64,000 nt of DNA from Prochlorococcus sp. AG-442-M23 (GCA_003209655.1 QCPW01000007.1:3149-67148); one strand, 5' to 3'; counted from the first letter of the stretch, positions 3,204-64,000 are shown. Program-made: numbers and translations. Notes: generated from the letters alone by a model not told the origin.

Positions 3204-3348
3204 TTGTTGATACCTCAAACTTTATAAAAGATTTTAATAATAAACCTTGACTTATTACACTATAAAATAAGAAAATAAAAAAACCTTTATGACTGCTTCT
3301 CGGGCTGAATCAAATTTATACATTTGAGCCTGGGTGCGTCTTTGAAAT

Positions 3349-3789: not shown

Positions 3790-3798
3790 TTTTTACTA

Positions 3799-4793: not shown

Positions 4794-4869
4794 TTTCTTA
4801 CTTAAATAATTCCATGTTAAAAATAATAAAATAGTTAGAAATAGTTCTCATAGTAATCTTAATATTAAA

Positions 4870-5787: not shown

Positions 5788-5790
5788 GAT

Positions 5791-6984
5791 TTATAAGAAA
5801 TTTTTGTTAAATGGTTTAATTCTTACGCCCTTATAAAAATGTTTTAAGATTCTTTCTGCTTTTATACCTTTGGAGGCCATATATCTTGCGCCCCATTGAC
5901 TCATACCTACACCATGGCCAGACCCTTTACCAAAAACTATTAAAATTCTTTCTTTAGAAATATTGGAATTAATATTATCAGAAATAATTGTTTTGTCTTC
6001 AATAAATTTAAATCGCATAAAATTACTTTTAAGATTAAGTCTTTTTCTAAGATCAACCCCTGACATTTGATTAGAACCGTAATTACCAAAAAGTTTTACA
6101 TTTTTTACTCTTCCTGTATTAGTTATATTTAAAATCTCAATTTTGTTTATTCCACCAATTTTAGGGAACAAGCTTTCCAATTCTTTGTTCGAGAATTTTT
6201 TCTGCCATCTCAGTTTTGGATTATTTTTATCAAAATCTTTAACACTAGATAAGTAAGGATATTCATTCTTCCAGACATCTTTACTATTTTCTGTCATACC
6301 TCCTGAACTACTGTGAAATAAGGCATTAATCAATTTATCTTTATATGTCAAGACTAATGACCTCGTACTTCTTACTGCTCTTGTAGTTTTATAAGTTCTT
6401 GATTCCAAACCATTATAAACTTGATTTTTCTGAGTGGAATCAATGTCATAAAATGAATTCCCTTTCTGTTTTAAGGCATAAGTCCTTGAGGCAATAGCTT
6501 GAGCTTTTAATGCCTCTAAAGGCCATTTAGTTGGCATCTCTGAGCCAACCACACTACTTAGATACTTCTCAATCCCAAGGATATTAATCACTAACATCTC
6601 AGAATCAAGAACTAATAGATTTAATATCCCTGAATATCTTTTCTGACCAACCCAAATACCCCTTCCATCAGAGGATTTAACAATGATTCTTGCTTTATTT
6701 TTCAACTCATAGATATTTTGTTTATTTTTATCAAAAAATAACGTGGTGCCATTTCTTTCCTTTTTTAAAGTCAAACCTTTAATTTTTTTATTTGAGAATT
6801 TTTGTCCTTTAATAACTAGTGGAATTGAGCTATCAGATCTGATTCTTAAATTTTTATTTTTTGATATTAAAACCCTAATTACTGGCTCTCTAGAGGCGGA
6901 TAAAGATTGATCCTGAAAAACGCTGAAACATACAACACTTATTAAACATAATTTATGAGAGATTTTTATAATTTTAAGAATCAC
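5791..6984 (-). CDS. SpoIID/LytB-domain protein (secreted amidase enhancer-like)
   Basis: N-terminal signal-like helix, FHSSSGGMTE and GHGVGMSQWGA motifs. Confidence 0.8.
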   Translation of the reverse strand: MILKIIKISHKLCLISVVCFSVFQDQSLSASREPVIRVLISKNKNLRIRSDSSIPLVIKGQKFSNKKIKGLTLKKERNGTTLFFDKNKQNIYELKNKARIIVKSSDGRGIWVGQKRYSGILNLLVLDSEMLVINILGIEKYLSSVVGSEMPTKWPLEALKAQAIASRTYALKQKGNSFYDIDSTQKNQVYNGLESRTYKTTRAVRSTRSLVLTYKDKLINALFHSSSGGMTENSKDVWKNEYPYLSSVKDFDKNNPKLRWQKKFSNKELESLFPKIGGINKIEILNITNTGRVKNVKLFGNYGSNQMSGVDLRKRLNLKSNFMRFKFIEDKTIISDNINSNISKERILIVFGKGSGHGVGMSQWGARYMASKGIKAERILKHFYKGVRIKPFNKNFL

Positions 6985-7072
6985 TTTGTTTTAAAAACAA
7001 ATTTTGTATTTGCCTTAGTTTGACTAAAAGTCTAGATTTAATCTAGATATCAAAACAAAAATATTATAATAA

Positions 7073-8011
7073 GTGAACATCACTTTTTTAGGAACAAGCT
7101 CAGGAGTTCCAACTTTAACTAGAAATGTCTCTTCCTTAGCCCTGAAATTATCTCAAACTGCTGAAGTATGGCTTTTTGACTGCGGAGAAGGCACGCAGCA
7201 TCAAATAATGAAGAGTAATATAAAATCCTCACAAATTAAGAAAATATTTATTACTCATATGCATGGTGATCATATATATGGCTTACCAGGTCTTTTAGCT
7301 ACATTAGGATTATCTGGAAATAGCAATGGAATTGAAATATATGGTCCTTCAGAGTTAAAAAGCTTTGTAACTTCTGCACTTCAAAACAGCTTTTGCAAGT
7401 TGGCATTTCCTTTACATTTTGTAGAAGTTGAAGATTTCGCCGCATTTAATAAAATTTTATTTGAAAACGAAAAATTAGAAGTTCAATGTGGCTGTCTCAA
7501 ACATAGACTACCAGCTTACGGTTATCGTGTAAGCGAAAAAGATAAGCCAGGAATATTCGATATCAAAAAAGCAGAAGATTTAAATATTCCAGCAGGACCC
7601 ATATATTCAGAATTACAAGCAGGTAAAACAGTTAAATTGAAAGATGGGAGATCTTTTAATGGAAAAGATTTTTGTGGTCCTCCTCGCAAAGGTAAAAGTT
7701 TCGTTTACTGTACTGATACAGTCTTTAGCGAGTCGGCAGTTGACTTATCCAAAAATGCTGATTTACTGGTCCATGAATCTACATTTTCAAAAGAAGATGA
7801 AAAAATGGCTTACGAAAAATTACATTCGACAACAATTATGGCTGCAAAAACTGCACTTTTGTCCAACGCAAAAAAGCTAATTATCACACATTTCAGTCCT
7901 AGATATACTCAAAAAAGTTCAATCAAGCCAAGTGATTTGCTGAAAGAAGCTCAAAAAATTTTTCCTAATACTTTTCTTGCAAAAGATTTTTTAACCCTAG
8001 AAATTAAATAA
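7073..8011 (+). CDS. rnz: Ribonuclease Z (metallo-beta-lactamase fold)
   Basis: [11 protein letters not shown] start and HMHGDH zinc motif; 312 aa; GTG start in the track. Confidence 0.9.
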
Positions 8012-8070
8012 ACTGCAACAGTTCGTGAGCAGTAGGGTTGTAAATGACCAACCCATGAAATAATAGTCAT

Positions 8071-8649
8071 ATGGTTTTTTTTAATTTGATGTCGATCGAA
8101 ATGGTTTCTATTTTTTCATCACTGAACAAGTCTTTCAAAAGACTTCTTATTTTTCTTCCATTGATTATTGGTTTACTTTTTAATCCAATATCTGCGAATG
8201 CACTTTATCCAAGTGATCCTTCATCTGTAGATGGATTGAAAGAAGATCTTCATGGTGCTGATCTTCAAAATAATGAATTTGTAAAATATGATTTATCTAA
8301 TCAAGATTTAGGCGAAGCCAATCTTCAAGGCGCTTATATGAGCGTAACAACTGCCAAGAACTCTAGTTTCAAAGGCGCCAATATGAAAGATCTTATTGCA
8401 TATGCTGTACGTTTTGATAATGCTGATTTATCAGATGCAAATCTTACAAATGGAGAGCTAATGAAAAGTGTTTTTAATGGTGCAACTATAGATGGAACAG
8501 ACTTTACTGACGCGAATCTTGATCTTTCTGAGAGGAAATCATTATGTGAGAGAGCAACAGGTACTAATTCAAAAACTGGCGTGGATACAGTTGACAGTCT
8601 TGAATGCTCAGGTTTAAAAGGTTATATGCCTCCAAAACCAAAAGCTTAA
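8071..8649 (+). CDS. Pentapeptide-repeat protein with an N-terminal signal/anchor
   Basis: Runs of A(D/N)LxG-type pentapeptides (GADLQNNEF, GEANLQGAY, NADLSDANLTNG, TDFTDANLD). The exact start among several Met codons is uncertain. Confidence 0.8.
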   Translation: MVFFNLMSIEMVSIFSSLNKSFKRLLIFLPLIIGLLFNPISANALYPSDPSSVDGLKEDLHGADLQNNEFVKYDLSNQDLGEANLQGAYMSVTTAKNSSFKGANMKDLIAYAVRFDNADLSDANLTNGELMKSVFNGATIDGTDFTDANLDLSERKSLCERATGTNSKTGVDTVDSLECSGLKGYMPPKPKA

Positions 8650-8657
8650 AAAATACT

Positions 8658-9023
8658 TTATATACTTTCTGGCAAAACATTACCAGGTTCTTTTGATCCT
8701 GGTTTTTTGCTATACCACCATTCTTGGATTTCTGAAGAAAACTTCTTAGAGAATAGAGTGATTACCGTTTCAACAGGTTTTGATCCTGGTTCTAAAATTT
8801 GAACCGAATATGATGGACTTTTCCTTGAGGCCATATCTGCTACAAATCTAGCTCCTATCCTTCTCCAACTTGGCTCTTTGCTTCGCCAGGCAATCCTAGA
8901 ACAAGGCCAAGGTAACTCTTCCCTGTCATATAGCCTGCAACATGGACCAATCACTTTGTAGCTGAATTGGCCACCATAACTGGAATGAATTGCACCGCTT
9001 TTAAATAATTCAAATTTATTCAT
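8658..9023 (-). CDS. Hypothetical protein (Trp/Arg/Pro-rich, non-AT-biased composition)
   Basis: 121-aa ORF that fills the gap between flanking genes. Its composition is unlike a shadow ORF. No motif recognised. Confidence 0.5.
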   Translation of the reverse strand: MNKFELFKSGAIHSSYGGQFSYKVIGPCCRLYDREELPWPCSRIAWRSKEPSWRRIGARFVADMASRKSPSYSVQILEPGSKPVETVITLFSKKFSSEIQEWWYSKKPGSKEPGNVLPESI

Positions 9024-13511: not shown

Positions 13512-13560
13512 AACGCAACCTGCTATTTTCTTATTAGGGGGATTAAAAATTCTTCAATTT

Positions 13561-13632
13561 GGGCGATTAGCTCAGTGGTAGAGCACTACCTCGACACGGT
13601 AGTGGCCACTGGTTCGAATCCAGTATCGCCCA
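13561..13632 (+). tRNA. tRNA-Val (anticodon GAC); CCA not encoded
   Basis: Cloverleaf folded by hand. Acceptor GGGCGAT/ATCGCCC, D arm GCTC/GAGC, anticodon stem CTACC/GGTAG with loop TCGACAC, T arm ACTGG-TTCGAAT-CCAGT. Confidence 0.8.
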
Positions 13633-13700
13633 TGAAAAGTTTTGACAGCCTAGGGTTGTATCCACAGAAAATAATTTCATTTTTTAGATTATTAAAAAAG

Positions 13701-17219: not shown

Positions 17220-17969
17220 ATGAATAATATTTTAGTGAGAGATGTTAAGTATCTTGATGAACAATACAGAATAGGTGAAGGCATAATTTCCGATGATGCA
17301 TTTAAGCAACTTGAGAAACTCTTTATACCTGTTGAACCAAATTATGACTACTTTAATCAAAAAATTAATAGACTTTTGCCAAAATTAGCTAAAGAAAACT
17401 ATAAAGAATTTTTGAGAAGTTTATTAATAAAAACAAGATTAAGCATTCAACCAAAAATTGATGGCTGCGCTATTGCAATTAGATATAAAAATGGCAATTT
17501 TAATAAAGCTATTACAAAAAAAGGATTTGATGTCTCAAGAAAAATTAAACAAATTAAAAATGTCCCCGATTGTATTCCTATCAAACGAGATTTTCAAATT
17601 AGAGGTGAACTATACGCCTCAAACCAAATTGCCGGAATTTCCCAAAGAATTGCAAGAAAATACCTCAATGATAAAAAAGGGATTGGAGAAAGTCTCCGCT
17701 TTTGCTGTTTCCAAATACTTAATGGAAGACTTAATCAATATGAAACCCTTAACTATCTTAAAAAATGTGGCTTTAGCACCCCGGATAGTTACTTCACCAA
17801 TAATACAAGCGAAATCGAAATATATAAAAAAAATTGGTTAGAGAAAAAAATATTTGCGAAATATCCTGCTAATGGGATAGTCATTAAAATAAATAGTAGG
17901 AAACTACAGTTACTAAGAGAGAAAAGTTTATCTCAAAATAACGAATGGCAATATGCCATTGAAAAATAA
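17220..17969 (+). CDS. Stand-alone NAD-dependent DNA ligase adenylation (nucleotidyltransferase) domain protein
   Basis: LigA Ia-like start (YLDEQYRIGEGIISDDAFKQLE), KxDG motif (QPKIDGCA) and RGE motif (IRGELY). The ORF ends just after an AIEK motif-V-like site, so the OB, Zn, HhH and BRCT parts are absent. Confidence 0.6.
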   Translation: MNNILVRDVKYLDEQYRIGEGIISDDAFKQLEKLFIPVEPNYDYFNQKINRLLPKLAKENYKEFLRSLLIKTRLSIQPKIDGCAIAIRYKNGNFNKAITKKGFDVSRKIKQIKNVPDCIPIKRDFQIRGELYASNQIAGISQRIARKYLNDKKGIGESLRFCCFQILNGRLNQYETLNYLKKCGFSTPDSYFTNNTSEIEIYKKNWLEKKIFAKYPANGIVIKINSRKLQLLREKSLSQNNEWQYAIEK

Positions 17970-34144: not shown

Positions 34145-34234
34145 TTATCAGAAATCATTTATTATTTAAAATTATTGAAAGGATTTAAAATAAAATGTTG
34201 AATAAAACCCGTAACACAATCCCTAAGAATGAAT

Positions 34235-34873
34235 ATGTGCGGAAGATTTGAACTTAAAACAAAATTTGATAAGTTACCAAAAATTTTAAGACAAAACTAT
34301 CCAAGTGGGCTTGATACGAAATACCAAACTCAGAATTTAATTAGACCCAGTGATCCAGTTTTGGTAGTAAAGAATGAAGGGAAAATTCAGACTACTTTTA
34401 TGAGATGGGGGTTCATACCTTCTTGGGCTAAAGACCCATTTGAGAAGAAAAGACCAAGACCATTTAATGCAAGATCAGAAACTATTGAAGAGAAAAAATT
34501 ATTTAGTGTAAGTTGGAAACATAAAAGATGCCTAATACCAGCAAGTGGTTTTTTTGAAAAAAAATATCGCCTTAGGAAAGAGAATTATGAGACTTTTTGG
34601 TTAGGAGGGATTTGGAGTAAATGGGCTGCACCTGATGGCACAGAGTTAGAAAGTTGCTGTATTTTAACAACTAAGCCAAATGAATTGATTAAGCCTATTC
34701 ATAATCGTATGCCAGTTGTAGTTCCTGATGGATACGAAGAACAATGGACTGAACAGGTTAAGGATACTAATGAATTGAGAGATTTTATCCACATTATTAT
34801 GGGATGGTCATTATCCGGCTGGATAAAAGAAGAAATAAATAGAGAAGCTATAGATCAAAAGAGCTTTTTTTAG
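34235..34873 (+). CDS. SOS-response-associated peptidase (SRAP/YedK family)
   Basis: MCGRF start, with the catalytic Cys2 required at the N-terminus, so Met-3 of the track ORF is the likely start. IHNRMPVVV motif. Confidence 0.85.
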   Translation: MCGRFELKTKFDKLPKILRQNYPSGLDTKYQTQNLIRPSDPVLVVKNEGKIQTTFMRWGFIPSWAKDPFEKKRPRPFNARSETIEEKKLFSVSWKHKRCLIPASGFFEKKYRLRKENYETFWLGGIWSKWAAPDGTELESCCILTTKPNELIKPIHNRMPVVVPDGYEEQWTEQVKDTNELRDFIHIIMGWSLSGWIKEEINREAIDQKSFF

Positions 34874-42163: not shown

Positions 42164-42404
42164 ACAAGTATTAAAAAAAGTAAAGTATATTGCAAAAAAA
42201 TCAGATTAACTATCATTATTTGACAACTATGTACCACACCTGTCAAATAAAAGTATTTTAGGTTACTACTTCTCCATAACCAATAAAAACAAAGGGGCTT
42301 AATAGGAATTCGAGGCTTGCACAAACCAAAAATCATATTCCATGAAAGAGTATAAGCATTTATACTCACACTAAGTAATTTTACTTACTATTATATATAT
42401 AAGG

Positions 42405-42500
42405 CATTTAGGAAGTGCTTAGCTGGTTAATTTCAGTCAGTTTGAATTTAACTTATTCGTCATGAGAGTTTGCTGGTAGGGATACAAGCAAGCTCTTTTT
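42405..42500 (+). ncRNA. Candidate small RNA, copy B (3' hairpin with conserved loop plus U-tract; 5' end is a guess)
   Basis: GAGTTTGCT-GGTAGGGATACA-AGCAAGCTC-TTTTT at 42466..42500. A TATATATATAAG -10-like tract lies about 70 nt upstream. Confidence 0.45.
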
Positions 42501-47345: not shown

Positions 47346-47884
47346 TTGGAAAATAAAAAAGTTATAAAATCAGCCTCAATTAATTATGAATAAAATTCCA
47401 GAAGAATCATTCAATAAGTTTTTTCCACTAGGTTTCAAATAAATCGGCATTTCTACGCATATACAAAAAAAATTATTCATACTAATTTTTTATTAATTAA
47501 TCGGAGGGGTTTTCAAATGATCGATAGTCCACCAGAGAAGTTCACTAGATTGGTTTAAGCTGCCAATTGTTTACTACTACACATAACTAAGTTAAGAGAT
47601 TAATTTCAAAAGAAAATGATTAATCTCTTTTTTATTGCCTTAATCTCTAAATATATGTCTTATGAGAGGTTATTTTAAAAGAATTTAAAAGGATTTAGCT
47701 CTTCTAAAACAAATCCTTGTCTAAAGATTCAAATAAATTTCTTAGTATCTATTAAAGTATCCTCTATTGTTTATTGAGATAAACATTAGATCTTTATCTT
47801 AAGTAACTAGATCCCCTATAAGTAAGCTTTATTAATTTTTCTTCTTGCCTCTTACAGTATACAAATGACTTGCCATTGAAATAC

Positions 47885-48004
47885 ATGTTTACCATGATGC
47901 AGCTCCAGAATTTGCTCAAGTCCCCGTCCTATGGCTTGAGTCGTACTGCGGTCTATCAAATGTTAGATCGGACGATTTTGGTAGTATTAACTACAATTTA
48001 TTAA
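47885..48004 (+). other. 39-codon ORF in a GC-richer patch; possible remnant of an excisionase/AlpA-type HTH gene
   Basis: MFTMMQLQNLLKSPSYGLSRTAVYQMLDRTILVVLTTIY. The GLSRTAVYQMLDR part resembles the recognition helix of small phage-type HTH proteins. The tail looks non-native. Confidence 0.2.
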
Positions 48005-55088: not shown

Positions 55089-55607
55089 ATGAAATTAAAA
55101 TTCTCGCCAACAACTATTTTTAGAGAGACTCCAAAAGTGACATTCTTTGATGCAGGTGTCGAGGAATCAAATGGTTGCGATGTGGTAATTCACTCTGAAG
55201 AAGCTATATCTCCTCCAGATGATTTTAAAGTTGAACAATATTACGTTCACAATCATCAAATTGATCACAACTTAGTTATTACTGGGCAAAGAACATTTGT
55301 TTTAATAAATCCTGCATGGGATGAACCTCATCATGTGATTTATTTAAATAGATCTATGGGAGCATTAGAAATTCCTATTGGAACTTATCACAGATCAATC
55401 TCAGGTAAAGAAGGTAGTATTGTTTTAAATCAACCCACAAGAGATAAATTTTTTGATCCAGCTAAAGAATTTATCCCACAAAAATTAGGCCAAACAAGTT
55501 TAATAAAGGCAAGAAAAACTCCACCTGTTTATTGGGTTTGGGAAAATGATCAAATTAAGAGAGTTGGGTTTAATCCCCTAGAACGAAAAATTAAGACCCT
55601 GGCTTGA
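55089..55607 (+). CDS. Hypothetical protein, possibly cupin-like
   Basis: 172-aa track ORF with a GGAGAGG Shine-Dalgarno. A His-rich beta-type segment (YYVHNHQIDHNLVITG...GTYHRS). The fold call is a guess. Confidence 0.45.
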   Translation: MKLKFSPTTIFRETPKVTFFDAGVEESNGCDVVIHSEEAISPPDDFKVEQYYVHNHQIDHNLVITGQRTFVLINPAWDEPHHVIYLNRSMGALEIPIGTYHRSISGKEGSIVLNQPTRDKFFDPAKEFIPQKLGQTSLIKARKTPPVYWVWENDQIKRVGFNPLERKIKTLA

Positions 55608-55608
55608 T

Positions 55609-55938
55609 ATGAACAAAACACAAAAAGATATTTCAACAAAAATTAATAATTCAAAAAATCTGAATTTAATTATTAATTCTGATACATATAAATTAGCTCA
55701 TGAAGATATTAGTTTTCTGAAAAAGATTGGATTTATGGAATTAAAATTCAGTTGGTATATTTCTAACCAAATGCAAGATTGGATAGTTAGTAGAAAACCT
55801 GACTATCCCAATCTGGCAGAATTTATTGCTTGGGTAGAAGAAAAGTTAAAGAGAGATGGATCGGACTACAAATTAACAAAACAAGATCTTGAAGATATTG
55901 AAACTGCCTATGCATTTCAAACTAGTGACTTAAATTAA
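55609..55938 (+). CDS. Hypothetical protein whose last 26 codons are duplicated at 63567..63644
   Basis: 109-aa track ORF that starts 1 nt after the upstream stop. Confidence 0.5.
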   Translation: MNKTQKDISTKINNSKNLNLIINSDTYKLAHEDISFLKKIGFMELKFSWYISNQMQDWIVSRKPDYPNLAEFIAWVEEKLKRDGSDYKLTKQDLEDIETAYAFQTSDLN

Positions 55939-55953
55939 AATTTTAAAATCCTT
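55859..55953 (+). repeat. Left copy of an approximately 95-nt direct repeat (3' end of 55609..55938)
   Basis: 74 of 80 positions up to the stop codon are identical to 63565..63644 in my manual alignment. Similarity continues about 14 nt past the stop. Confidence 0.85.
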
Positions 55954-56043
55954 ATTTGAAGAGTTTTAAAAAAGTTTTCTAAATTTTTTAAAGTATAATT
56001 TCTTTGGTGTTTCTTTGGAAGAGTTTCACCAGGAGGGGCTAGT

Positions 56044-56065
56044 TTTAGCCCCTTTTATCTCAAAT
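56044..56065 (+). terminator. Rho-independent terminator after the 55089..55938 gene pair
   Basis: GGGGCT-AGTTTT-AGCCCC followed by TTTT. Confidence 0.6.
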
Positions 56066-56128
56066 ATCTTTGATTGATATTCGATCTAAACTGGAGGGAT
56101 AAAACTCTTTTTTAACTTTTTCTTCCTG

Positions 56129-56347
56129 TTATTCTGATTCTTCTTTAACTTCAATTGTATTTACCTCTTCCGCTTTTACTTCCTCTTCTTTAACTTCAAC
56201 AAATTTTACCTTTGGCTCTTCCGCTTTTACTTCAACTAATTTTGATTCTATAGATTCGAACTTTCCTTTAATAAAATTTGCTATGAAAATTAATATTGGA
56301 ACATGGGCTAGACCACCCATTATCACTTTAGTTTCTGAATAATACAT
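56129..56347 (-). CDS. Small membrane-anchored protein with a repetitive Glu/Lys/Val tail
   Basis: One TM helix followed by VEVKAEEPKVKFVEVKEEEVKAEEVNTIEVKEESE. Confidence 0.45.
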   Translation of the reverse strand: MYYSETKVIMGGLAHVPILIFIANFIKGKFESIESKLVEVKAEEPKVKFVEVKEEEVKAEEVNTIEVKEESE

Positions 56348-56603
56348 TTGTAAGTTAATGAGAACTGAAATATTTAAGCATAAATTTAATTTGTATTTAA
56401 TTATATTAAAGTTAATTTATAACAAAAAGTTTGAGTAACACCTACTCAAAGCTTTAAAAATCGATAAGATCCTATGATATGACTGAAGAAAAGTTTTGGA
56501 TAATGAAAAGTGCGCGAGATGCATTTTGCTAGTGATAGCAAGGGTTTTATTTTTAAAAAAATTTCATTCGAACCTCATTCGAACTTTTAAAAGAAATTAA
56601 TCA

Positions 56604-56759
56604 ATTATTTTCTCTTAAATAAATCTTGTATTACATAAATTTCTTCTGCGCTCGGATACTTCTCTTTAAAAATACTTACTGCAGTATTTGGAGATGAAGC
56701 AAACAAATTTACTTTGATTCTATAAGTATCAACTAAACCAGTAATTAAATAATTTTTCA
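56604..56759 (-). CDS. Small ORF (51 aa) downstream of 56816..57253
   Basis: MKNYLITGLVDTYRIKVNLFASSPNTAVSIFKEKYPSAEEIYVIQDLFKRK. Same strand as its upstream neighbour, 56 nt away. Confidence 0.35.
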
Positions 56760-56815
56760 TTACAAATAACTATGTTTACGTAACTAATAAAAGCATTAAT
56801 TTAATTTTGTTTTTT

Positions 56816-57253
56816 TTAAAAACTCTTTTGTGACTCTATCTCATAAAATTTCTCATCTTCTTTGATTAAATACACGCTTATTTTTTTATATACTTTTTTA
56901 TCAAAGTATCCTGTTCTCTTATCTATTGAATAACGAACAGTTGGAATATCTCGAATCCAATTAAAATAATTGATTACTTCTGAATCGATAGAAATATATC
57001 TGTACTCTTTGTAGATATAACTCATCCAATCAAAATGATCGATAGATACTGTTATGTCAAAGACATAACCGTTGTAATCACCTATACACCAGCCTGCTGA
57101 TATAAAGCATCTTACTGGAGGTATTCTTGGAATATTAATCTCTACTGGACTATTTACTATCCAGTTAAAAAAGTTTTTTCCTTCAGGTTCTTTGACAGAA
57201 GAATTGCTGATCCAATTCTCAAATTTTTTTCTCTGTGAAGGACGAACCAACAT
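56816..57253 (-). CDS. Hypothetical protein with three (F/Y)xNWI repeats
   Basis: FENWISNSSVKEP, FFNWIVNSPVEIN and YFNWIRDIPTV. Divergent from the nuclease-helicase operon. Confidence 0.5.
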   Translation of the reverse strand: MLVRPSQRKKFENWISNSSVKEPEGKNFFNWIVNSPVEINIPRIPPVRCFISAGWCIGDYNGYVFDITVSIDHFDWMSYIYKEYRYISIDSEVINYFNWIRDIPTVRYSIDKRTGYFDKKVYKKISVYLIKEDEKFYEIESQKSF

Positions 57254-57386
57254 TAAAAATGTTCAACAACTAATTTTTTTAGATTAATAAAAATAATTTT
57301 TTGGAACACTATATATTTTGATATGCCTGGATAAGGAGTAAAAAAGATTCAAATCGTTTAAATCTGAATAAGTAAATTTTTAAATT

Positions 57387-57728
57387 ATGGATCGAATAAC
57401 TACAATGCCACATAAAATAGAATTGGAATTAAAAGAACTTGTGAATCTTCTTGTAACTCTTGATAAACAACAACTAATTGAAAATTCTATGGAATCTAAA
57501 TTAAGTCAATTAGATTTTGAAAGAATTATCAAAAAATTACTACTTGATTTCGGTTTAAATCTAGTTAAAACTTTTACAAAAAAAAATGGAAGAGAGTTAA
57601 TCACAATCAATATTGTTCCTATAACTACACAAATCGAAAGGGATTTCGAATTGAATATCAAAAGTAATCTCAAAGATGAATTGGAGAAATTTATAAACGA
57701 GAAAACTATGGAGGCAGAATATGATTAA
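57387..57728 (+). CDS. Hypothetical 113-aa protein whose gene overlaps the start of the nuclease-helicase gene
   Basis: Its stop (57726..57728) lies 8 nt inside the next gene. No recognisable motif. Confidence 0.55.
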   Translation: MDRITTMPHKIELELKELVNLLVTLDKQQLIENSMESKLSQLDFERIIKKLLLDFGLNLVKTFTKKNGRELITINIVPITTQIERDFELNIKSNLKDELEKFINEKTMEAEYD

Positions 57729-60700
57729 TCGATCAAGTGAGAGAACTTTTGCACCAGGTGAATTAGCTTTGTTTTGTCAAAGTCCTCTAGCTGCTTGGTG
57801 GAATGAATTAGATCGTCGCAAACTATTTAAAGGACAAAAACTTAAAGAAGATCCACTAAATGAAATACTCAAAAAAGATGGAATTAGACATGAAGAAAAG
57901 CTAATCAAAGAATTAGAAAATCAAAATTTTAAAGTTCAAAGGCTTAAAGGCAAACAAGATAAATCAGACTATGAAGAATGTATCAAAGCTATTAATCATG
58001 GATATGATTTTATTTATCAAGGTAGTTTTAATAATGGGGAAATTAGGGGGGCAGTTGATTTACTTAAAAGAGTAGATATTCCATCAAGACTAGGTCCTTT
58101 TAGTTACATCCCAATTGAATGCAAATTAGCATCAAAAATAAATATCAAATTTATAATTCAAGCTCTTTGTTATTGTGAATTACTTATTGAATCTATGGGT
58201 AATCGTCCTAAAACATTCGAACTTTATCTTGGTGGTCGATCTTTTGAGTATTTTGATGTTGATAAATATTGGGCATGGTATCAGTTTAAGAAAAATCAAT
58301 ACAAATCTTTTCTAAGACATTTCAACCCAAATAAAGAACCAGAAGATATTCCAGGTGATCATTCAAATTGGACAGAATTCATAACTGAAAGGCTTAAGAC
58401 AAAAAGAGATTTAATATTGGTGCACAACATGTTAAAGACCCAACGTAACAAACTTAGAGCCAAAGGAATATTATCGATTGATCAACTTGCAGTCATTAAA
58501 CCTAATTCAAAAATACCTGGAATGAATCCAGAGATTCTAGAGAGATTAATAAAGCAAGCAGCGATACAAATTAAGCCAAGAAAGAATAAAAATGTTCCAG
58601 AATTTATTTTGAAAGATCAGGATAATTCCTTTGGTCTATTTAACCTACCAAAACCCAGTCAAGGGGATATATGGTTTGATTTAGAGGGATCTCGTGATTT
58701 CGTTAAAGGAACCAAACTCGAATACCTTTTTGGTGTTGTTTATTTAGATAAAAATAATCAACTAACTGACTATTACTGGTGGGCTCATACAGATGAGGAA
58801 GAGAAATTAAGCTTTGAAAAATTTGTAGATTGGGTTGAGAAAAGACGTAAAGAATTTCCTGATCTTCATATTTATCATTACGCAAATTATGAAAAAGTAG
58901 CTGTAAGAGATCTCCAACAAAAATATTTAACTTGCATAACTGAGATTACCGAGTGGCTTACAAATAATTTGTTAATAGATCTACAACCAATAGTTCAAAA
59001 CACAATCATCTTGGGCGAAGAAAGCTACTCACTAAAAAAGGTTGAAAAACTATATATGTTAAGGGAAGAAGATATGCAATCCGCAGTCGAATCAATGGTT
59101 GCATATGAACTTTGGAAAAATTCTGATGAACCAGGGATGCCAGGGAAGCTTGAAGATGGTTTAAGTCCAATGCTTGAAGAAATAAGGCTTTACAACAAAG
59201 ATGACTTAGTTTCAACTTATAAACTTAATCAATGGCTTTTAAAATTAAAATCAGATTTAAATATTCAAGAATCAGTTTCTGAGGAAGAAGAGCAAAAAGA
59301 AAAAAAGCATAGAGAAATTGATATTGAAGCCTCTCTTTTATTAGATGAAATTCCTAGCCAAGCATTTAATAGAAACAAAAATAAAAGCAAAGTTATTCCC
59401 CCCAATCCAAGAGGATGGAGTTGGGAAACACAAAAAGTTTTATCATCTTTAATGGGTTTTTTAGTTCGTGAGCAGGATGTTAATTATTGGAGATATTTTG
59501 ATAGGGTAGAGCAATCTTTTGTTAATCCATCCTCACTTTTAAAAGATGATGAAGTTATTGCTGAAGCACGTTTAGTTGAAAATTCGGAAGATATTGAATA
59601 TTCCTTTAATCCAGAACAGCCTATTAAGTTAGAAAAAGATGCAAATAATTCATGGGGCTTGAGATTATTTCTTCCGAAAAGTGAAAGGAAGTTAAAGGTA
59701 CAACCTTATGGACTTGATTGCGAGAAAGGCACTATAAAATTCAACGAAAGTAAAAGGAATATTGGTAAGAGTCTAGCAATTGAAGAATGTCTTATAAAAG
59801 TAGAATTTGACTTTACTAAAAGTGTAAAAACAAGTCTTTTAGCTCAAGCGAAAGAATGGGTAAGTGATGTTAGTACAATCTCACCAACAATTATTCAATT
59901 ATTAGAAAGAGATACGATACCTGAACTAGTTTCGGTTAACGAAAAAATTCAAAAAGATCTACCCAACATCAAGAAATATATTTCAAATTTTATTTTAAAT
60001 AATGATGAAATATTGTTTGCAATTCAGGGACCTCCTGGTACTGGTAAAACGACATTATCAAGCAAGGTAATTGCTGATTTAGTTCAAAAAGGCTTTAGGG
60101 TTGCAATTACATCTAATAGTCATAAAGTAATTGATAATTTACTTTTAAAAATAGATACTCATTTTAAAGATCACAATATCGAAAAATTAATAGTTAAATG
60201 TGATACGAGAGAAAATGAAATATTTCTGCACAGTAAGGTTTTAATACTTCCCCCTAAAAAAATTGGAAATCATATATCAGTCATGGGTGCTACAACCAAT
60301 AAATTCTGTAGTAAAGATTTTGATTCTAAATTTGATCTATTAGTGGTTGATGAAGCGGGTCAATACGCTTTAGCAAATTTACTAACAATCGCAAAACACT
60401 CTAAATCAATTCTTTTGGTAGGAGATACTCAGCAATTAGCAATGCCTACTAAGGCGAGTCATCCAAATAATTCTGGACAATCATGTTTACAATTTCTAAT
60501 GAACGGATTAGAAGTTGTTCCAAATAATAAAGGTATCTTTCTACCAATAAGCTGGCGAATGGCGCCTGCTATTAATAATGTCGTATCGGAACTTTTTTAC
60601 CAAGGGAAGCTTAAACCAAATACTAAAAATAGTGAAAATAAAATCATTTGGGAGCAATCTTCTATAGAAAAAGATAAATCAATCTATCCTGATCGAGGTG

Positions 60701-61158
60701 TCATATTTGTCCCTGTAAGACATCAAGATTGCTCTTTAAAATCAGAAGAAGAAGCAGAAAAAATTAAACAACTTATAAAACTACTTTTATCATCAAAATA
60801 TAAATTAACCTCCGATCAAGAAAAATTTATCTCTGAAAAAGATATCCTCATTATTGCTCCCTTTAATGTTCAAGTTAACTATTTAAAGCATAAGTTAAAC
60901 GAAAATTTAAAAATTGGAACAGTTGATAACTTTCAAGGTCAAGAAGCATTAATTTCTATATTCTCACTCACTTCTAGTTCAGGGGAAGATGCTCCTCGCG
61001 GACTTGATTTTCTATTAGAACCTAACCGTCTAAATGTTGCGATATCACGTGCAAAAGTGCTTTCTATAATCGTAGGTTCGCCATCACTGGCAGAAAGTTT
61101 TTGCAAAACTAACGAGGAAGTTAAAAAATTAAATAGATTAATAAGAATAATGAAATAG
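57721..61158 (+). CDS. Fusion of a RecB-family PD-(D/E)xK nuclease, a DEDD/RNase-H-like exonuclease and an SF1 (Upf1/DNA2-like) helicase
   Basis: N-terminal nuclease: GAVDLL...IPIECKLASK...QALCY. Middle exonuclease-like part: WFDLEGSRDF, IYHYANYEK, YNKDDLVST. C-terminal helicase: Walker A GPPGTGKTT, Walker B LLVVDEAGQ, LVGDTQQL, VDNFQGQEA, LNVAISRAK. Confidence 0.9.
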   Translation: MINRSSERTFAPGELALFCQSPLAAWWNELDRRKLFKGQKLKEDPLNEILKKDGIRHEEKLIKELENQNFKVQRLKGKQDKSDYEECIKAINHGYDFIYQGSFNNGEIRGAVDLLKRVDIPSRLGPFSYIPIECKLASKINIKFIIQALCYCELLIESMGNRPKTFELYLGGRSFEYFDVDKYWAWYQFKKNQYKSFLRHFNPNKEPEDIPGDHSNWTEFITERLKTKRDLILVHNMLKTQRNKLRAKGILSIDQLAVIKPNSKIPGMNPEILERLIKQAAIQIKPRKNKNVPEFILKDQDNSFGLFNLPKPSQGDIWFDLEGSRDFVKGTKLEYLFGVVYLDKNNQLTDYYWWAHTDEEEKLSFEKFVDWVEKRRKEFPDLHIYHYANYEKVAVRDLQQKYLTCITEITEWLTNNLLIDLQPIVQNTIILGEESYSLKKVEKLYMLREEDMQSAVESMVAYELWKNSDEPGMPGKLEDGLSPMLEEIRLYNKDDLVSTYKLNQWLLKLKSDLNIQESVSEEEEQKEKKHREIDIEASLLLDEIPSQAFNRNKNKSKVIPPNPRGWSWETQKVLSSLMGFLVREQDVNYWRYFDRVEQSFVNPSSLLKDDEVIAEARLVENSEDIEYSFNPEQPIKLEKDANNSWGLRLFLPKSERKLKVQPYGLDCEKGTIKFNESKRNIGKSLAIEECLIKVEFDFTKSVKTSLLAQAKEWVSDVSTISPTIIQLLERDTIPELVSVNEKIQKDLPNIKKYISNFILNNDEILFAIQGPPGTGKTTLSSKVIADLVQKGFRVAITSNSHKVIDNLLLKIDTHFKDHNIEKLIVKCDTRENEIFLHSKVLILPPKKIGNHISVMGATTNKFCSKDFDSKFDLLVVDEAGQYALANLLTIAKHSKSILLVGDTQQLAMPTKASHPNNSGQSCLQFLMNGLEVVPNNKGIFLPISWRMAPAINNVVSELFYQGKLKPNTKNSENKIIWEQSSIEKDKSIYPDRGVIFVPVRHQDCSLKSEEEAEKIKQLIKLLLSSKYKLTSDQEKFISEKDILIIAPFNVQVNYLKHKLNENLKIGTVDNFQGQEALISIFSLTSSSGEDAPRGLDFLLEPNRLNVAISRAKVLSIIVGSPSLAESFCKTNEEVKKLNRLIRIMK

Positions 61159-61171
61159 AGATATGAAAAAA

Positions 61172-61204
61172 ATGTTCACGATATGTTCATGATATGTTCA
61201 CGAT
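61172..61204. repeat. Tandem 11-nt repeat ATGTTCACGAT x3 (middle unit has a C-to-T change)
   Basis: Read directly. It occupies most of the 49-nt gap between the helicase stop and the next ORF. Confidence 0.9.
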
Positions 61205-61207
61205 TTA

Positions 61208-61411
61208 ATGGCTTCACCTTCGAGTTGGGAATTCTATAAAGAAGAACAAACTAAGATTTTATGGGTCCATATTTGTACCCAAGATTTAACGGTTGTAGCT
61301 ATTTCAATAAATAAATGGTGGAAGACAAGGTATCCAGAGTTCAAAATGAGAATAGTTTCTAAAAAAGAATTCGAACATATAAAAATGCAGGAGCCGCAAC
61401 AGCCACAATAA
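61208..61411 (+). CDS. Hypothetical protein (67 aa)
   Basis: Track ORF immediately after the 11-nt repeats. Trp-rich, with non-AT-biased composition. Confidence 0.4.
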   Translation: MASPSSWEFYKEEQTKILWVHICTQDLTVVAISINKWWKTRYPEFKMRIVSKKEFEHIKMQEPQQPQ

Positions 61412-61487
61412 AATTAATCTTTGGTAAATTTTGATGCTGAATATTTTATTTATGCAGCTAATATAAACCCATCACATATATGAACAA

Positions 61488-61643
61488 ATGAATTCTGCAT
61501 TTACAAAAGTCTCAAATTTGAAAGTTAACAGGGCTTCTAAAATAGCTATTACTCTGGCATCATCGACTTTCTTCTTATACGCATTAGGTCAAGCACCGAT
61601 TTTTAAAAATATTCTTGCAGGCGCTTTTTCTTGTTCTGGTTAA
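61488..61643 (+). CDS. Small membrane ORF candidate (51 aa)
   Basis: MNSAFTKVSNLKVNRASKIAITLASSTFFLYALGQAPIFKNILAGAFSCSG. Confidence 0.3.
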   Translation: MNSAFTKVSNLKVNRASKIAITLASSTFFLYALGQAPIFKNILAGAFSCSG

Positions 61644-62032
61644 ATAAAATGCTTCCTAGGAGATGATATGGTCCGCGGATTAAGATTTAATTAATCATGA
61701 TTAAATCAATCTTAAGGATTCATGCAAAATATTTGAGAGCGATTAATTTAATTATACGACAGTTCTGGTGATCGACTAGACCAAGGTTGACCAACTAGAT
61801 CTTCACTAATCCATGGTCTGCAACACCAAGGTAAATTAACTTTTCTAACCTTTACGGGAAAAAAAGTTAAATGATCAGATATTAAACTCTCGGGAGTAAT
61901 TCTGAACTATCTTAAAAATAAAGTCGTTTGTAAAGCATGAAGAAGTGATTAATCACTTTTACTTTCAAAACTAATTTTTATGAAAATTCTTAATCTGATT
62001 ATTAAATAGATCCCCTTTCTGTCGTCATCATT

Positions 62033-62060
62033 AAAAAAGACCTGTAACAGGGTCTTTTTT
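62033..62060. terminator. A-tract/hairpin/T-tract element, probably terminating the minus-strand 62430..62136 unit
   Basis: AAAAAAGACCTGTAACAGGGTCTTTTTT. Confidence 0.5.
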
Positions 62061-62135
62061 ATGTCTTAAATTTTATTGATTGACTGTTAATCCAGAAATA
62101 ACTAAATATTTTTATCTCGCTCTTTCGTGATCAGT

Positions 62136-62243
62136 TAATGCTTTTTCAAAAGTAGAAAAGAAAGTACAAATGCTATTCAATGCAACCAACAAAATAACTA
62201 CTGATCTTCCATGTTGATTTAATTGAAGTGTTCTTTGAGTCAT
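62136..62243 (-). CDS. Small ORF candidate (35 aa)
   Basis: Starts 5 nt after the stop of 62248..62430. MTQRTLQLNQHGRSVVILLVALNSICTFFLLLKKH. Confidence 0.25.
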
Positions 62244-62247
62244 ACTC

Positions 62248-62430
62248 TTAATAATCTTCGTTGTAATCGGATGGACTACCAGTTAAAGAACAAACAACTG
62301 ATTCCTCCTTTTTCATTTCTTTTATTTTCATTATTGGTCTGCCAATTTTCTTAAGAACATTTATATCTTCTTTAGTCTGACAGCGAGCAATTATGTTTCC
62401 ATTTTGATCGAAGCAAGAGTAGTAAGTCAT
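62248..62430 (-). CDS. Small hypothetical protein (60 aa)
   Basis: Track ORF with non-repetitive composition. Confidence 0.4.
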   Translation of the reverse strand: MTYYSCFDQNGNIIARCQTKEDINVLKKIGRPIMKIKEMKKEESVVCSLTGSPSDYNEDY

Positions 62431-62660
62431 TTTGCTTAATGAAATTTAAAAATTATGGTTGATTTCAGTTGTAGCAACACAACCGACTCATGACAACCAT
62501 GCTTTTAATCTAGGTCAGCCAAAAATTTAAATGGCTAAAAAAAGATACCTCTTTCCGTACCTATATGTTCATCAAACCGCACTCATAAGATACGCAGTGC
62601 TTTGTTCAAATCAATTAGAACAAAAAAAGAAAGTTAAAAATAATTTACTAAGGAGAATTT

Positions 62661-62798
62661 ATGAGTGGAGATTTTGAGACTCTTGAAATAAATCAACCAA
62701 AAATTACATATCTAAAACCAGAAAACAATACAGAATGGTTAGACAAATTAATTCATCATATTGAGGACATGAAGAACAAGATATCAAAAGATTATTAG
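62661..62798 (+). CDS. Small ORF (45 aa), NTEWLDK family
   Basis: AAGGAG Shine-Dalgarno. MSGDFETLEINQPKITYLKPENNTEWLDKLIHHIEDMKNKISKDY. Confidence 0.4.
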   Translation: MSGDFETLEINQPKITYLKPENNTEWLDKLIHHIEDMKNKISKDY

Positions 62799-62932
62799 AA
62801 ATTTAAGAAAGAAACTTTTTTATTAGTTCATTAATTTAAATGAGAAGCAATTCAAAAAAGATCTGAATTTTGTATTTAAGGTAACCGCTTTTTTGTGAGC
62901 ATTATTCAGAATAAGAGTCCGATTATTTTTTT

Positions 62933-63076
62933 ATGCAAAAAAATTTAGATGAAAATTCTTATGAAAAAAGAATTGAAAATATAGAAAAAGGAAAATCTTA
63001 TTTAAAAAGTAATGGGTTTTTTAAATCAAAATCGAATCTATTCGAAGACATACAAAAATTTATCCATAAAAGGTAA
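62933..63076 (+). CDS. Small ORF candidate (47 aa)
   Basis: MQKNLDENSYEKRIENIEKGKSYLKSNGFFKSKSNLFEDIQKFIHKR. Confidence 0.25.
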   Translation: MQKNLDENSYEKRIENIEKGKSYLKSNGFFKSKSNLFEDIQKFIHKR

Positions 63077-63193
63077 TTTATAAAATATTTTTTACTTTTG
63101 ATTAATTAAATCTCTCCATAAGCAAGCCATCACATAAAAGAAAGAAAGACTTGAAAAGGTTAGGAGAAAAAAAGAATGGGTCATTTTCAATAA

Positions 63194-63298
63194 CTAAATT
63201 AATCCCAATAATCCTGCAGTAAAACCAACAGTCGCAAAGAATATGAACTCGATCAAATCTCTTGGAGCAGAGTTCATAAATAAACTGATTTGAGTCAT
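63194..63298 (-). CDS. Small TM peptide (34 aa) downstream of 63303..63497
   Basis: Starts 5 nt after the upstream stop. MTQISLFMNSAPRDLIEFIFFATVGFTAGLLGLI. Confidence 0.3.
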   Translation of the reverse strand: MTQISLFMNSAPRDLIEFIFFATVGFTAGLLGLI

Positions 63299-63302
63299 AG
63301 TT

Positions 63303-63497
63303 TTATGACTTGAGAGAATCTTTTAAATCAAACTTTTCAGCTTTTTCAGTTTGACATTCAGTATCATCTTCAGCGCATTTAATTTCAGCTTTTTTGTTCA
63401 TGTGGCTACTACAACCACCGGCTATAACTGGTAAACAGGTTGTAGCCGTAAAACCAGTTAAACATGCAAAGGCGATATAGGGGAAAAGTCTTTTCAT
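63303..63497 (-). CDS. Small secreted or lipoprotein-like protein
   Basis: Signal-like N-terminus ending in VIAGGCSS, then a Cys- and acid-rich mature part. Confidence 0.45.
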   Translation of the reverse strand: MKRLFPYIAFACLTGFTATTCLPVIAGGCSSHMNKKAEIKCAEDDTECQTEKAEKFDLKDSLKS

Positions 63498-63564
63498 TTA
63501 ATTGTTACTTTATGTAAACTTATTATGTTACAAAAAAAGCTCAAGCGTGAGTAGCTGATAATTT

Positions 63565-63658
63565 GATCGGAATACAAGTTAACAAAACAAGATCTTGATG
63601 ATATTGAAACTGCTTATGAATTTCAAACTAGTGATTTAAATTAAATTTTAAACTCTTT
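63565..63658 (+). repeat. Right copy of the direct repeat: an orphan 3' gene fragment
   Basis: Encodes SEYKLTKQDLDDIETAYEFQTSDLN-stop, with an in-frame TGA immediately upstream and no start codon. Confidence 0.85.
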
Positions 63659-63795
63659 CATTAAATGATTGCGAATACTAGATTTATACACCTCGATTTT
63701 TTACCAATTTTCTTGCTTTTTCCTTATTTTTTCGTAAGTATGCTTATATAGGCTCTAATTTGCTCTAAAAAACTGTCACATGGGGGTTGACGATT

Positions 63796-63999
63796 ATGGA
63801 AATTCCAGACGAAATGTTGAAAGAAATTAGAGAAAGTGGATACGATCAAGAGCTTGTATATAACTACATAAGAGAACTATTAAACAGCGATAAACAAATT
63901 AATGAAAATAACAATCTAGAGCTTATAGACAATTACTTATTAGACAAAGCTATACAAGAACCTGCTGCTGAGATACAAATAGCAGCAGAGATTATAGAC
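63796..63999 (+). CDS. Hypothetical acidic protein; 3' end lies outside the window
   Basis: An ATG follows a GGGGG tract, and the frame stays open to the window edge (MEIPDEMLKEIRESGYDQELVYNYIRELL...). Confidence 0.35.
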   Translation, partial: MEIPDEMLKEIRESGYDQELVYNYIRELLNSDKQINENNNLELIDNYLLDKAIQEPAAEIQIAAEIID

Positions 64000-64000
64000 A

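What the first reader, a model, noticed from the sequence alone, without database searches (positions are those of the whole stretch)
55859..63658. A duplicated gene 3' end brackets a 7.7-kb segment containing the nuclease-helicase locus
The last 80 nt of gene 55609..55938 recur at 63565..63644, with 74 of 80 positions identical in my manual alignment and about 14 further similar nt past the stop. The right copy has an in-frame TGA immediately upstream and no start, so it is an orphan fragment. Of the six differences, three are synonymous third-position changes and three are conservative (D/E, E/D, A/E). This suggests both copies once evolved as coding sequence. There are two readings. The repeats could be att-like repeats left by integration of an element into the 3' end of a gene. 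Alternatively, the right copy could be a remnant of a paralogous cassette whose 5' part was deleted. Either way they mark recombination boundaries around the candidate system.
Basis: seen in the sequence. Interest (0 to 1): 0.65.

Follow-up and report, generated by a model that had tools for sequence, protein, structure and literature searches.

The report
Orphaned gene end: island recombination scar
The repeated 80 bases are real. The right copy is the leftover tail of a second copy of a small Prochlorococcus gene, cut off by an untidy recombination in a hypervariable genomic island, so the pair is not the two ends of a mobile element carrying the nuclease-helicase, and the feature is ordinary.

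Summary
The repeat is confirmed: 55859-55946 against 63565-63652, 88 nt at 91%, with 74 of 80 coding positions identical, far above chance. The window is a Prochlorococcus genomic island.

The left copy ends a conserved 67-aa gene (sORF, 55735-55938). In this genome the sORF is fused to the first 37 codons of a LOG-family gene. The right copy is a tail with no start codon.

The att-like reading fails on six counts:
- No recombinase was found in the large ORFs scanned.
- The left copy is allele A along its whole length, like metagenome contig L022. The right copy is allele B2 at every variable site, like L023/L024, where a full sORF sits directly before the window's right flank. There was therefore no crossover inside the repeat.
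- The 7.7 kb is a mosaic whose parts differ about 100-fold in abundance in the sea.
- The helicase module has its own borders (56604-61161) and occurs in another genome without the repeat.
- Metagenome contigs that skip the helicase join about 56050 to 61204, not repeat to repeat.
- Other orphan tails are cut at different points, and one is a proven in-place deletion.

Interest is low.

The parts
55609..55938 (+). Chimeric 109-aa ORF. It joins the first ~37 codons of a LOG/SLOG-family gene (55609-~55718) to the native 31-nt leader and the whole 67-aa sORF, allele A (55735-55938). The junction lies at 55704-55718, over an imperfect ~15-nt microhomology AGATATTnnTTnnCT.
   Evidence: Protein hits fall into two groups: LOG N-termini covering residues 1-39, and free-standing 67-88-aa proteins covering residues 43-109. 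Homology to intact [172aa][LOG] loci stops at 55718-55721. No rest of LOG is in the window.
55859..55946 (+). Left copy of the repeat: the last 26 codons and stop of sORF allele A, plus 8 nt.
   Evidence: It is A-type (the same as L022) at 55866, 55872, 55908 and 55929, and also at all informative 5' sites.
55996..56062 (+). Conserved two-hairpin element downstream of sORF-A ('type A flank'). The second hairpin looks like a terminator.
   Evidence: It is conserved in L001, L010 and L022, with 2 compensatory pairs. It occurs in L010 and L001 without the sORF. The consensus terminator scan did not call it.
56129..56347 (-). 72-aa gene of unknown function, part of the common type-A flank.
   Evidence: 92% identical to the protein in L022. 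Metagenome depth here is 540-1700.
56414..56601 (+). Multi-copy island element holding a decayed 5' fragment of an EVE-domain gene (56446-56526). It abuts the left border of the helicase module.
   Evidence: tblastn of the L091 EVE protein matches residues 16-42 at 48% with a stop. Copies occur in L008 (twice), L009, L010, L025, L084 and L085.
56604..61161 (.). Helicase module: 51-aa (56605-56760, -), 145-aa (56816-57253, -), 113-aa (57387-57728, +) and the 1145-aa TM0106 RecB-like nuclease fused to an SF1 helicase (57721-61158, +).
   Evidence: L019 matches 56604-57434 at 85% and 57420-61161 at 83%, in a different context next to Mrr and a type I restriction-modification system. Domain matches: Pfam RNase_H_2 and AAA_11/AAA_12; TIGR03491 at 183 bits against a cut-off of 97. 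Metagenome depth is 10-100 here, against 1000-9000 in the flanks.
61204..61649 (+). Common two-gene cassette (67 aa and 51 aa). 61204 is the recurrent right edge of contigs that skip the helicase block.
   Evidence: L001 7609-8054 matches at 83%, next to a type-A flank copy with no helicase between. Joints 56038, 56054 and 56113 to 61204 appear in runs X1, X3 and X8.
61698..63564 (.). Abundant block of small genes ending with the 64-aa gene (63303-63497, -) and its upstream region. In most cells this block is followed by the EVE / DUF2811 / DUF1818 / rpoZ genes.
   Evidence: L094 matches 61698-63563 at 92%, and L091-L093 match up to 63566. Depth is 1200-9000.
63565..63652 (+). Right copy of the repeat: an orphan 3' end of sORF allele B2. 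The coding remnant is 63565-63644, with an in-frame TGA at 63564-63566 and no start. The illegitimate junction is 63564|63565, with 2 nt (GA) shared with the usual continuation.
   Evidence: No contig in 8 metagenomes crosses this junction.
63645..64000 (+). Native downstream flank of sORF-B2. The gene starting at 63797 runs off the window.
   Evidence: In L024 (95.7%) and L023 a full-length sORF is directly followed by this flank. Metagenome contigs show the same, for example X21 record 10.

Best explanation
The window is a hypervariable genomic island of a high-light Prochlorococcus. The repeated sequence is the 3' end of a small conserved gene (sORF, 67 aa, function unknown). The stop codon of this gene is a border between conserved and highly variable DNA in the population.

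The genome holds pieces of two allelic versions of the gene. A complete allele A sits with its own downstream flank (55735-56113 and beyond). The last 80 nt of allele B2 remain attached to B2's own downstream flank (63565-64000). The B2 copy lost its first 124 nt and its upstream DNA in one illegitimate recombination that joined it to the upstream region of the 64-aa gene (63564|63565, 2-nt overlap).

That event was either a deletion between two island cassettes, or the joining of incoming island DNA anchored by homology further left. In the second case the join would resemble homology-facilitated illegitimate recombination. Which of the two happened is inferred and not resolved.

The 7.7 kb between the copies is not a unit. 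It is a chain of separate cassettes, and the nuclease-helicase module (56604-61161) is a rare one with its own borders. The repeat is therefore a scar with no function of its own.
For: - **Each copy has a full-length counterpart in its own flank context.** L022 matches 55704-56507 at 94% for the left copy. L023/L024 carry a full sORF followed by 63645-64000 at 96% for the right copy. Contigs of the second kind also occur in three further metagenomes.
- **The allele pattern excludes a crossover in the repeat.** The left copy is A-type at every informative site along the gene. The right copy equals L023/L024 at all 7 variable sites.
- **The interior is a mosaic.** The helicase module occurs in L019 with borders at 56604 and 61161 and no sORF nearby. 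61204-61649 lies next to a type-A flank in L001 with no helicase between. 61698-63566 is followed by EVE/rpoZ or other DNA in L091-L094.
- **Abundance differs about 100-fold.** Depth is 10-100 over 56568-61103, against 1000-9000 on both sides. Joints run from 56038-56113 to 61204, not from repeat to repeat.
- **Independent 5'-truncated sORF tails are cut at different points.** These are ~55848 (L088), 55855 (L084/L085), 55859 (window), ~55870 (L089) and ~55881 (L008). L084 is shown to be an in-place 117-nt deletion relative to L026.
- **No recombinase was found.** Pfam scans of 30 ORFs across 13.5-63.5 kb, including the larger ORFs of the 7.7 kb segment, found none. The sORF and the helicase are both absent from phage and viral collections.
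- **A second nearby tail is rare.** Only 2 of 33 loci of at least 3 kb with a full sORF have one. In L008 the tail lies upstream of the full copy, the opposite order to the window.
Against: - L023/L024 also look like the 'empty site with a single repeat copy' that an integration model predicts. Only the allele pattern argues against that.
- All orphan tails found are 3' tails, and their cut points cluster within about 35 nt. This could hint at a preferred site or at selection for the tail.
- No genome with two full-length sORF copies was seen, so the two-copy ancestor needed for a plain deletion is hypothetical.
- The junction microhomology is only 2 nt.
- The source genome beyond 64000 (about 5.7 kb of contig) could not be read, and its raw reads were not available. 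A chimera from single-cell amplification cannot be excluded by me.
Confidence: 0.78

Rival explanations
1. The repeats are attL/attR of an integrated 7.7-kb element. The element entered the 3' end of the sORF by site-specific or Campbell-type recombination, bringing a replacement 3' end and pushing the resident 3' end to the far side.
For: The repeats are direct and at a gene's 3' end. The orphan sits on the far side and is followed by the native flank. L023/L024 have one copy followed by that flank, as an empty site would. The sORF stop codon is a border of hypervariable DNA: downstream flanks fall into 34 clusters among 81 copies, while 54 of 73 upstream flanks fall into one cluster.
Against: No integrase or other recombinase was found. 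The left copy's 5' part is A-type, not B-type, so a crossover would have to lie in the first 7 of 88 nt and in a recombinant resident allele that was never observed. The interior parts have separate histories and abundances. No repeat-to-repeat joint appears in four metagenomes. Orphan cut points differ between genomes, and one is a plain deletion. In L008 the orphan is upstream of the full copy.
Confidence: 0.07
2. The junctions are artefacts. The source looks like a single-cell assembly, and 63564|63565 and/or the LOG::sORF join could be amplification chimeras fixed in the assembly.
For: Both junctions are unique. No protein among 5.8 billion covers more than 71% of the fusion ORF. No contig in 8 metagenomes crosses 63564|63565.
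Against: A second, independent assembly (Logan contig L090) is 100% identical across the right junction over 2377 nt. A mis-join through the repeat would give a full hybrid gene, not a truncated one. The copies share no exact run long enough to collapse in an assembly graph. Similar truncated tails exist in unrelated metagenome contigs.
Confidence: 0.05
3. The 3' tail is kept because it works, for example as a promoter or RNA element for a neighbouring gene. That would explain why only 3' tails survive.
For: All five independent remnants keep the last 57-92 nt. A minus-strand promoter-like site lies inside the repeat (63626 to 63598, 10 of 12 matches) and points at the 64-aa gene.
Against: Promoter-like sites are no more frequent than in shuffles: 3 found against 3.3 expected. 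There is no Rfam match. In most cells the 64-aa gene has a different upstream sequence with no sORF tail. The remnants have different neighbours. A scan that needs the C-terminal motif to detect short pieces will favour 3' tails.
Confidence: 0.05

Closest known systems
Partial tRNA/tmRNA repeats flanking tycheposons and older island remnants in Prochlorococcus (Hackl et al., bioRxiv 10.1101/2020.12.28.424599, read)
   Same: Both are direct repeats of the 3' part of a gene inside a Prochlorococcus genomic island. In both, an intact copy lies at one side and orphan pieces lie further in.
   Different: Those repeats are tRNA/tmRNA segments made by tyrosine or large serine recombinases carried on the element. 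Here the gene codes for a protein, no recombinase is present, the two copies are different alleles with no crossover, the cut points vary, and the DNA between them is not one element.
Scars of illegitimate or microhomology-mediated recombination, including homology-facilitated illegitimate recombination (de Vries and Wackernagel 2002; cited from my own knowledge, not read here)
   Same: A truncated resident gene abuts unrelated DNA at a junction with 2-15 nt of shared bases. One side of the block could have been anchored by homology.
   Different: The event itself was not observed. Natural transformation is not known in Prochlorococcus, so the route of entry, if the DNA came from outside, is open.
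Flexible gene cassettes and replacement genomic islands of marine bacteria (Coleman 2006 and Kashtan 2014, from my own knowledge; Lopez-Perez 2014, from my own knowledge and seen only as an entry in the reference list of the paper read)
   Same: Conserved anchor genes with many alternative neighbours starting right at the gene's end, and cassettes with very different population frequencies.
   Different: This particular anchor (sORF next to the EVE/rpoZ flank) and its orphan tails were not found described in the one literature search and one paper I read.
TM0106-family RecB-like nuclease fused to an SF1 helicase (NCBIfam TIGR03491)
   Same: The 1145-aa protein passes the family cut-off and has the same architecture as Synechococcus/Cyanobium proteins named this way.
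   Different: It is rare in Prochlorococcus. Here it is paired with a 113-aa gene whose stop overlaps the helicase start. Its matches to defence-system models (MkoA/MkoC) cover the helicase domain only.

Membership tests
Integrative element bounded by att repeats | A site-specific recombinase (tyrosine or serine) encoded in or beside the bounded segment | tested here: not met
   Pfam scans of the larger ORFs of the 7.7 kb and of 20 further ORFs between 13.5 and 54 kb found none. ORFs under about 90 aa outside the segment were not scanned.
Integrative element bounded by att repeats | The repeats arise from one crossover, so the intact copy is a resident/incoming chimera and the orphan is its reciprocal | tested here: not met
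   The left copy is allele A throughout and the right copy is allele B2 throughout. Only a crossover in the first 7 nt would fit.
Integrative element bounded by att repeats | An empty site with a single repeat copy joined to the far flank exists in relatives | tested here: met
   L023/L024 and contigs in runs X20, X21 and X23 carry a full sORF followed by 63645-64000. The remnant model predicts this equally.
Integrative element bounded by att repeats | The bounded segment behaves as one unit, with the same content, frequency and ends wherever it is found | tested here: not met
   Depth is 10-100 against 1000-9000 within the segment. Sub-blocks occur separately in L001, L010, L019 and L091-L094. 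Joints run from 56038-56113 to 61204.
Integrative element bounded by att repeats | Excised circle or precise repeat-to-repeat deletion detectable in reads | tested here: inconclusive
   No such joint was seen in four metagenomes. Reads of the source genome itself were not available.
Pseudogene remnant / recombination scar | A full-length homologue in the same flank context exists elsewhere | tested here: met
   L023/L024 match 63565-64000 at 89-96% with the complete gene upstream.
Pseudogene remnant / recombination scar | The fragment cannot be translated as a gene (no start, in-frame stop) | tested here: met
   TGA at 63564-63566, and no ATG/GTG/TTG in frame.
Pseudogene remnant / recombination scar | Independent truncations of the same gene, with different break points, occur in the population | tested here: met
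   L084/L085, L088, L089, L008a, and the internally deleted copy in L094.
TM0106 family RecB-like nuclease (TIGR03491) with SF1 helicase | Match to the family model above its curated cut-off, plus AAA_11/AAA_12 helicase domains | tested here: met
   TIGR03491 scores 183.4 bits against a cut-off of 97.45. PF13482, PF13086 and PF13087 match above their cut-offs.
Tycheposon | Integration at one of the named tRNA/tmRNA genes, with an integrase and a replication module | tested here: not met
   The only tRNA in the window is Val(GAC) at 13560-13633. There is no integrase and no partial tRNA near 55-64 kb. Family features are taken from the paper read.

The most novel reading that the evidence does not exclude
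The stretch between the sORF stop codon and the start of the EVE-domain gene may be a preferred entry point for island cassettes in Prochlorococcus that needs no element-encoded integrase. Incoming DNA would bring its own sORF copy as a homology anchor and join at the other end by microhomology. This would leave sORF tails and EVE 5' fragments behind, in the way tRNA fragments mark tycheposon sites.
Probability: 0.12. Interest if true: 0.5.

Novelty: new member of a known kind. Interest (0 to 1): 0.2.

Why it matters
The result mainly clears up a false lead. The nuclease-helicase locus should not be treated as cargo of a 7.7-kb mobile element defined by this repeat. Its real unit is about 4.6 kb (56604-61161): two small genes, a 113-aa partner and the helicase.

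It also gives a worked example of how Prochlorococcus islands are assembled. Cassettes have sharp, recurrent edges. Truncated anchor genes remain as scars (the sORF tail, the LOG head, the EVE head). Neighbouring cassettes can differ about 100-fold in population frequency. This is useful for anyone annotating such islands, but it does not change what is known about them.

Tried and rejected
- **Source genome look-up.** An exact look-up of the helicase protein to find the source contig and read past 64000 found nothing on record. Only 295 nt beyond the window were recovered, through L090.
- **Reads of the source genome.** No public run holds the window at more than 23-50% of sampled words. Excision in the strain itself could therefore not be tested; only metagenome contigs were laid.
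- **RNA families.** Rfam found nothing in 55400-64000, even at E<=1.
- **Phage or virus origin.** The sORF is absent from 50,697 phage records. The repeat pattern and the helicase are absent from IMG/VR.
- **Defence and naming models.** The PADLOC and NCBIfam libraries returned no family at E<=0.01 for the small genes scanned from the segment. Pfam gave only one sub-threshold match, for the 113-aa protein.
- **Further homology upstream of 63565.** A faint 'KKLKRE' resemblance seen by tblastn was rejected. All full-length relatives lose homology exactly at 63565, and the sequence to the left belongs to the 64-aa gene block.
- **A second break at 63661-63670.** I first read the divergence from L008/L010 there as a second break of the remnant. 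L023/L024 show that this flank is native to allele B2, so only one break is specific to the window.
- **Terminator scan.** The consensus scan did not call the hairpin at 56034-56055. It is supported only by the alignment fold.
Full report
**1.

The repeat finder gives one two-copy family, 55859-55946 and 63565-63652, 88 nt at 91%. In the coding part, 74 of 80 positions agree. A gapped local alignment scores 144, against 25.6 +/- 3 for shuffled sequence. A 33-nt core with up to three mismatches occurs only at these two places in the 64 kb.

The six differences are three synonymous changes and three residue changes (D44E, E53D, A60E). Five of the six are at third codon positions. The right copy starts with an in-frame TGA and has no start codon. 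A second public assembly (L090) is identical across the right junction.

**2. Where we are**

The window has about 28% G+C. It carries high-light-inducible-protein-like genes, the cyanobacterial RNAs Yfr20 and Yfr11, and a glutamine-II riboswitch. All related genome loci are Prochlorococcus single-cell genomes, apart from one short metagenome-assembled contig labelled Marinoscillum. The region from about 14 kb onwards looks like a genomic island, with low G+C, many tiny ORFs and cell-surface genes.

**3. The gene that carries the left copy is a fusion**

Protein hits to the 109-aa ORF fall into two groups:
- Free-standing proteins of 67-88 aa match residues 43-109. I call this gene sORF.
- LOG/SLOG-family proteins match only residues 1-39.

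Genomes with the intact order [small Cys-rich ORFs][172-aa gene][LOG] (L001, L008) lose homology to the window at 55718-55721, which is LOG codon 37. The sORF's native 31-nt leader starts at 55704. The two homologies overlap in an imperfect ~15-nt stretch. No other part of LOG is in the window. No protein in the 5.8-billion-sequence collection covers more than 71% of the fusion.

**4. What the sORF is in the population**

One genome scan and one metagenome scan gave about 80 copies, mostly complete. The 400 nt upstream fall into one cluster for 54 of 73 copies; in the loci I inspected (L026, L084) that stretch holds a high-light-inducible-type gene. The 300 nt downstream fall into 34 clusters among 81 copies. 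The sORF stop codon is therefore a border of hypervariable DNA.

Among the closest relatives the same upstream unit (a 297-aa gene on the other strand, 95-99% identical) and the same sORF are followed by three different sequences:
- **Type A** (L022): the window's 55939-56507.
- **Type B2** (L023, L024): the window's 63645-64000.
- **Type C** (L009, L025): an EVE-domain gene.

**5. The two copies are two alleles, each with its own flank**

At every site where L022 and L024 differ and the window's left copy matches one of them, it matches L022 at all but one (55816). This holds in the 5' part (55712, 55751, 55785, 55809, 55828) and in the repeat (55866, 55872, 55908, 55929). The right copy equals L023/L024 at all seven variable sites.

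The left copy is thus not part resident and part incoming, as a crossover inside the repeat would make it. Contigs with a full sORF running into 63645-63780 occur in three more metagenomes. No contig in eight metagenomes crosses 63564|63565. From the left, contigs continue as CAGAAATTTAT... (towards EVE) or as CGCGTGCACCC... From the right, they continue as the full gene.

**6. The 7.7 kb is not one unit**

- The helicase module matches L019 over 56604-57434 and 57420-61161. There it lies beside Mrr and a type I restriction system, is split by two extra genes, and has no sORF nearby. L020 shares only the helicase.
- 61204-61649 lies in L001 about 190 nt from a copy of the type-A flank, with no helicase between.
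- 61698-63563 is in L094. The 64-aa gene block up to 63566 is in L091-L093, followed by EVE, DUF2811, DUF1818 and rpoZ.
- Laid metagenome contigs give depths of 10-100 over 56568-61103 and 1000-9000 on either side. Joints run from 56038, 56054 and 56113 to 61204 in three runs. None runs from repeat to repeat.

**7. Other orphan tails**

Five independent 5'-truncated sORF tails start at about 55848, 55855, 55859, 55870 and 55881. L084 aligns with L026 on both sides of a clean 117-nt gap, so that tail arose by deletion in place. L094 has an internally deleted, decayed copy. Only the window and L008 have a tail within reach of a full copy (2 of 33 loci). In L008 the tail is upstream of the full copy.

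**8. No mobility genes**

The Pfam scans found no integrase, transposase or other recombinase. They covered the larger ORFs of the segment and 20 further ORFs. The sORF and the helicase are absent from phage and viral collections. Tycheposons, the known island-building elements of Prochlorococcus, use tRNA/tmRNA sites and carry integrases. Neither applies here.

**9. Mechanism**

*Shown:*
- The right copy is a truncated B2 allele still joined to its native downstream DNA.
- Its left edge is a junction not seen in any other public sequence examined here.
- The left partner of that junction is normally followed by other DNA.

*Inferred:*
- One illegitimate recombination joined ...GATAATTTGA to sORF nucleotide 125, with a GA overlap.
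- This was either an internal deletion between two cassettes or the far end of imported DNA anchored by homology to the left. I cannot tell these apart, because no genome with two full copies was found and the contig beyond 64000 is out of reach.
- The LOG::sORF join is a second scar of the same kind, with longer microhomology.

**10. Points that pull the other way**

- L023/L024 are what an empty att site would look like.
- All the remnants are 3' tails, with cut points within 35 nt.
- Three different continuations start within 3 nt of 63564-63567.

These keep alive a modest chance that the sORF-EVE border is a preferred entry site for cassettes. They do not rescue the claim that this pair of repeats bounds the helicase locus.

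**11. Verdict**

The att reading is not supported and the remnant reading is supported. This is a new example of a known kind of feature: a recombination scar in a Prochlorococcus island. Interest is low.

Noticed in passing
window 55609-55938: The annotated 109-aa gene is a fusion of the first ~37 codons of a LOG-family gene with a complete small gene. No other part of LOG is in the window, so this genome may lack LOG at its usual place.
   Followed up: yes
window 56414-56601 (EVE fragment 56446-56526, +): This is a decayed 5' fragment of an EVE-domain gene. The intact EVE gene, with DUF2811, DUF1818 and rpoZ, is the usual neighbour of both the sORF and the 64-aa gene in other cells. Copies of the fragment are scattered in islands (L008 twice, L010, L084/L085).
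   Followed up: partly
window 55996-56062: A conserved two-hairpin element lies downstream of the sORF. The second hairpin is GC-rich with a T-run and shows two compensatory pairs across four sequences. It could be a terminator or a small RNA.
   Followed up: partly
window 61172-61203: Three tandem 11-nt units (ATGTTCAYGAT) lie between the helicase stop codon and the next gene's start. This is exactly where contigs that lack the helicase block rejoin.
   Followed up: no
window 57387-57728 and 57721-61158: The 113-aa gene overlaps the helicase start by 8 nt and travels with it in L019 but not in L020. In L019 the pair lies next to Mrr and a type I restriction-modification system. This fits a defence-island setting, but the pair matches no known defence system beyond the helicase domain.
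   Followed up: partly
window 42402-42490, 47495-47634, 47915-47977(-): Rfam matches above the gathering score: Yfr20, Yfr11 and a glutamine-II riboswitch.
   Followed up: no
window 63564-63567: Three different continuations begin within 3 nt of each other in different cells: the sORF tail here, CGCGTGCACCC... in L094, and CAGAAATTTAT... leading to EVE in L091-L093. This is a sharp, recurrent cassette edge.
   Followed up: partly
L008 2570-2834: Another scar built from the same pieces. An sORF tail with type-A flank is joined to the last 148 nt of the 172-aa gene plus the first 21 nt of LOG, 4 kb upstream of that genome's full sORF.
   Followed up: partly
window 17220-17969, 34229-34873: Two DNA-repair-type genes lie in the island: a protein with only an NAD-dependent DNA ligase adenylation domain, and an SOS-response-associated peptidase (SRAP).
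   Followed up: no
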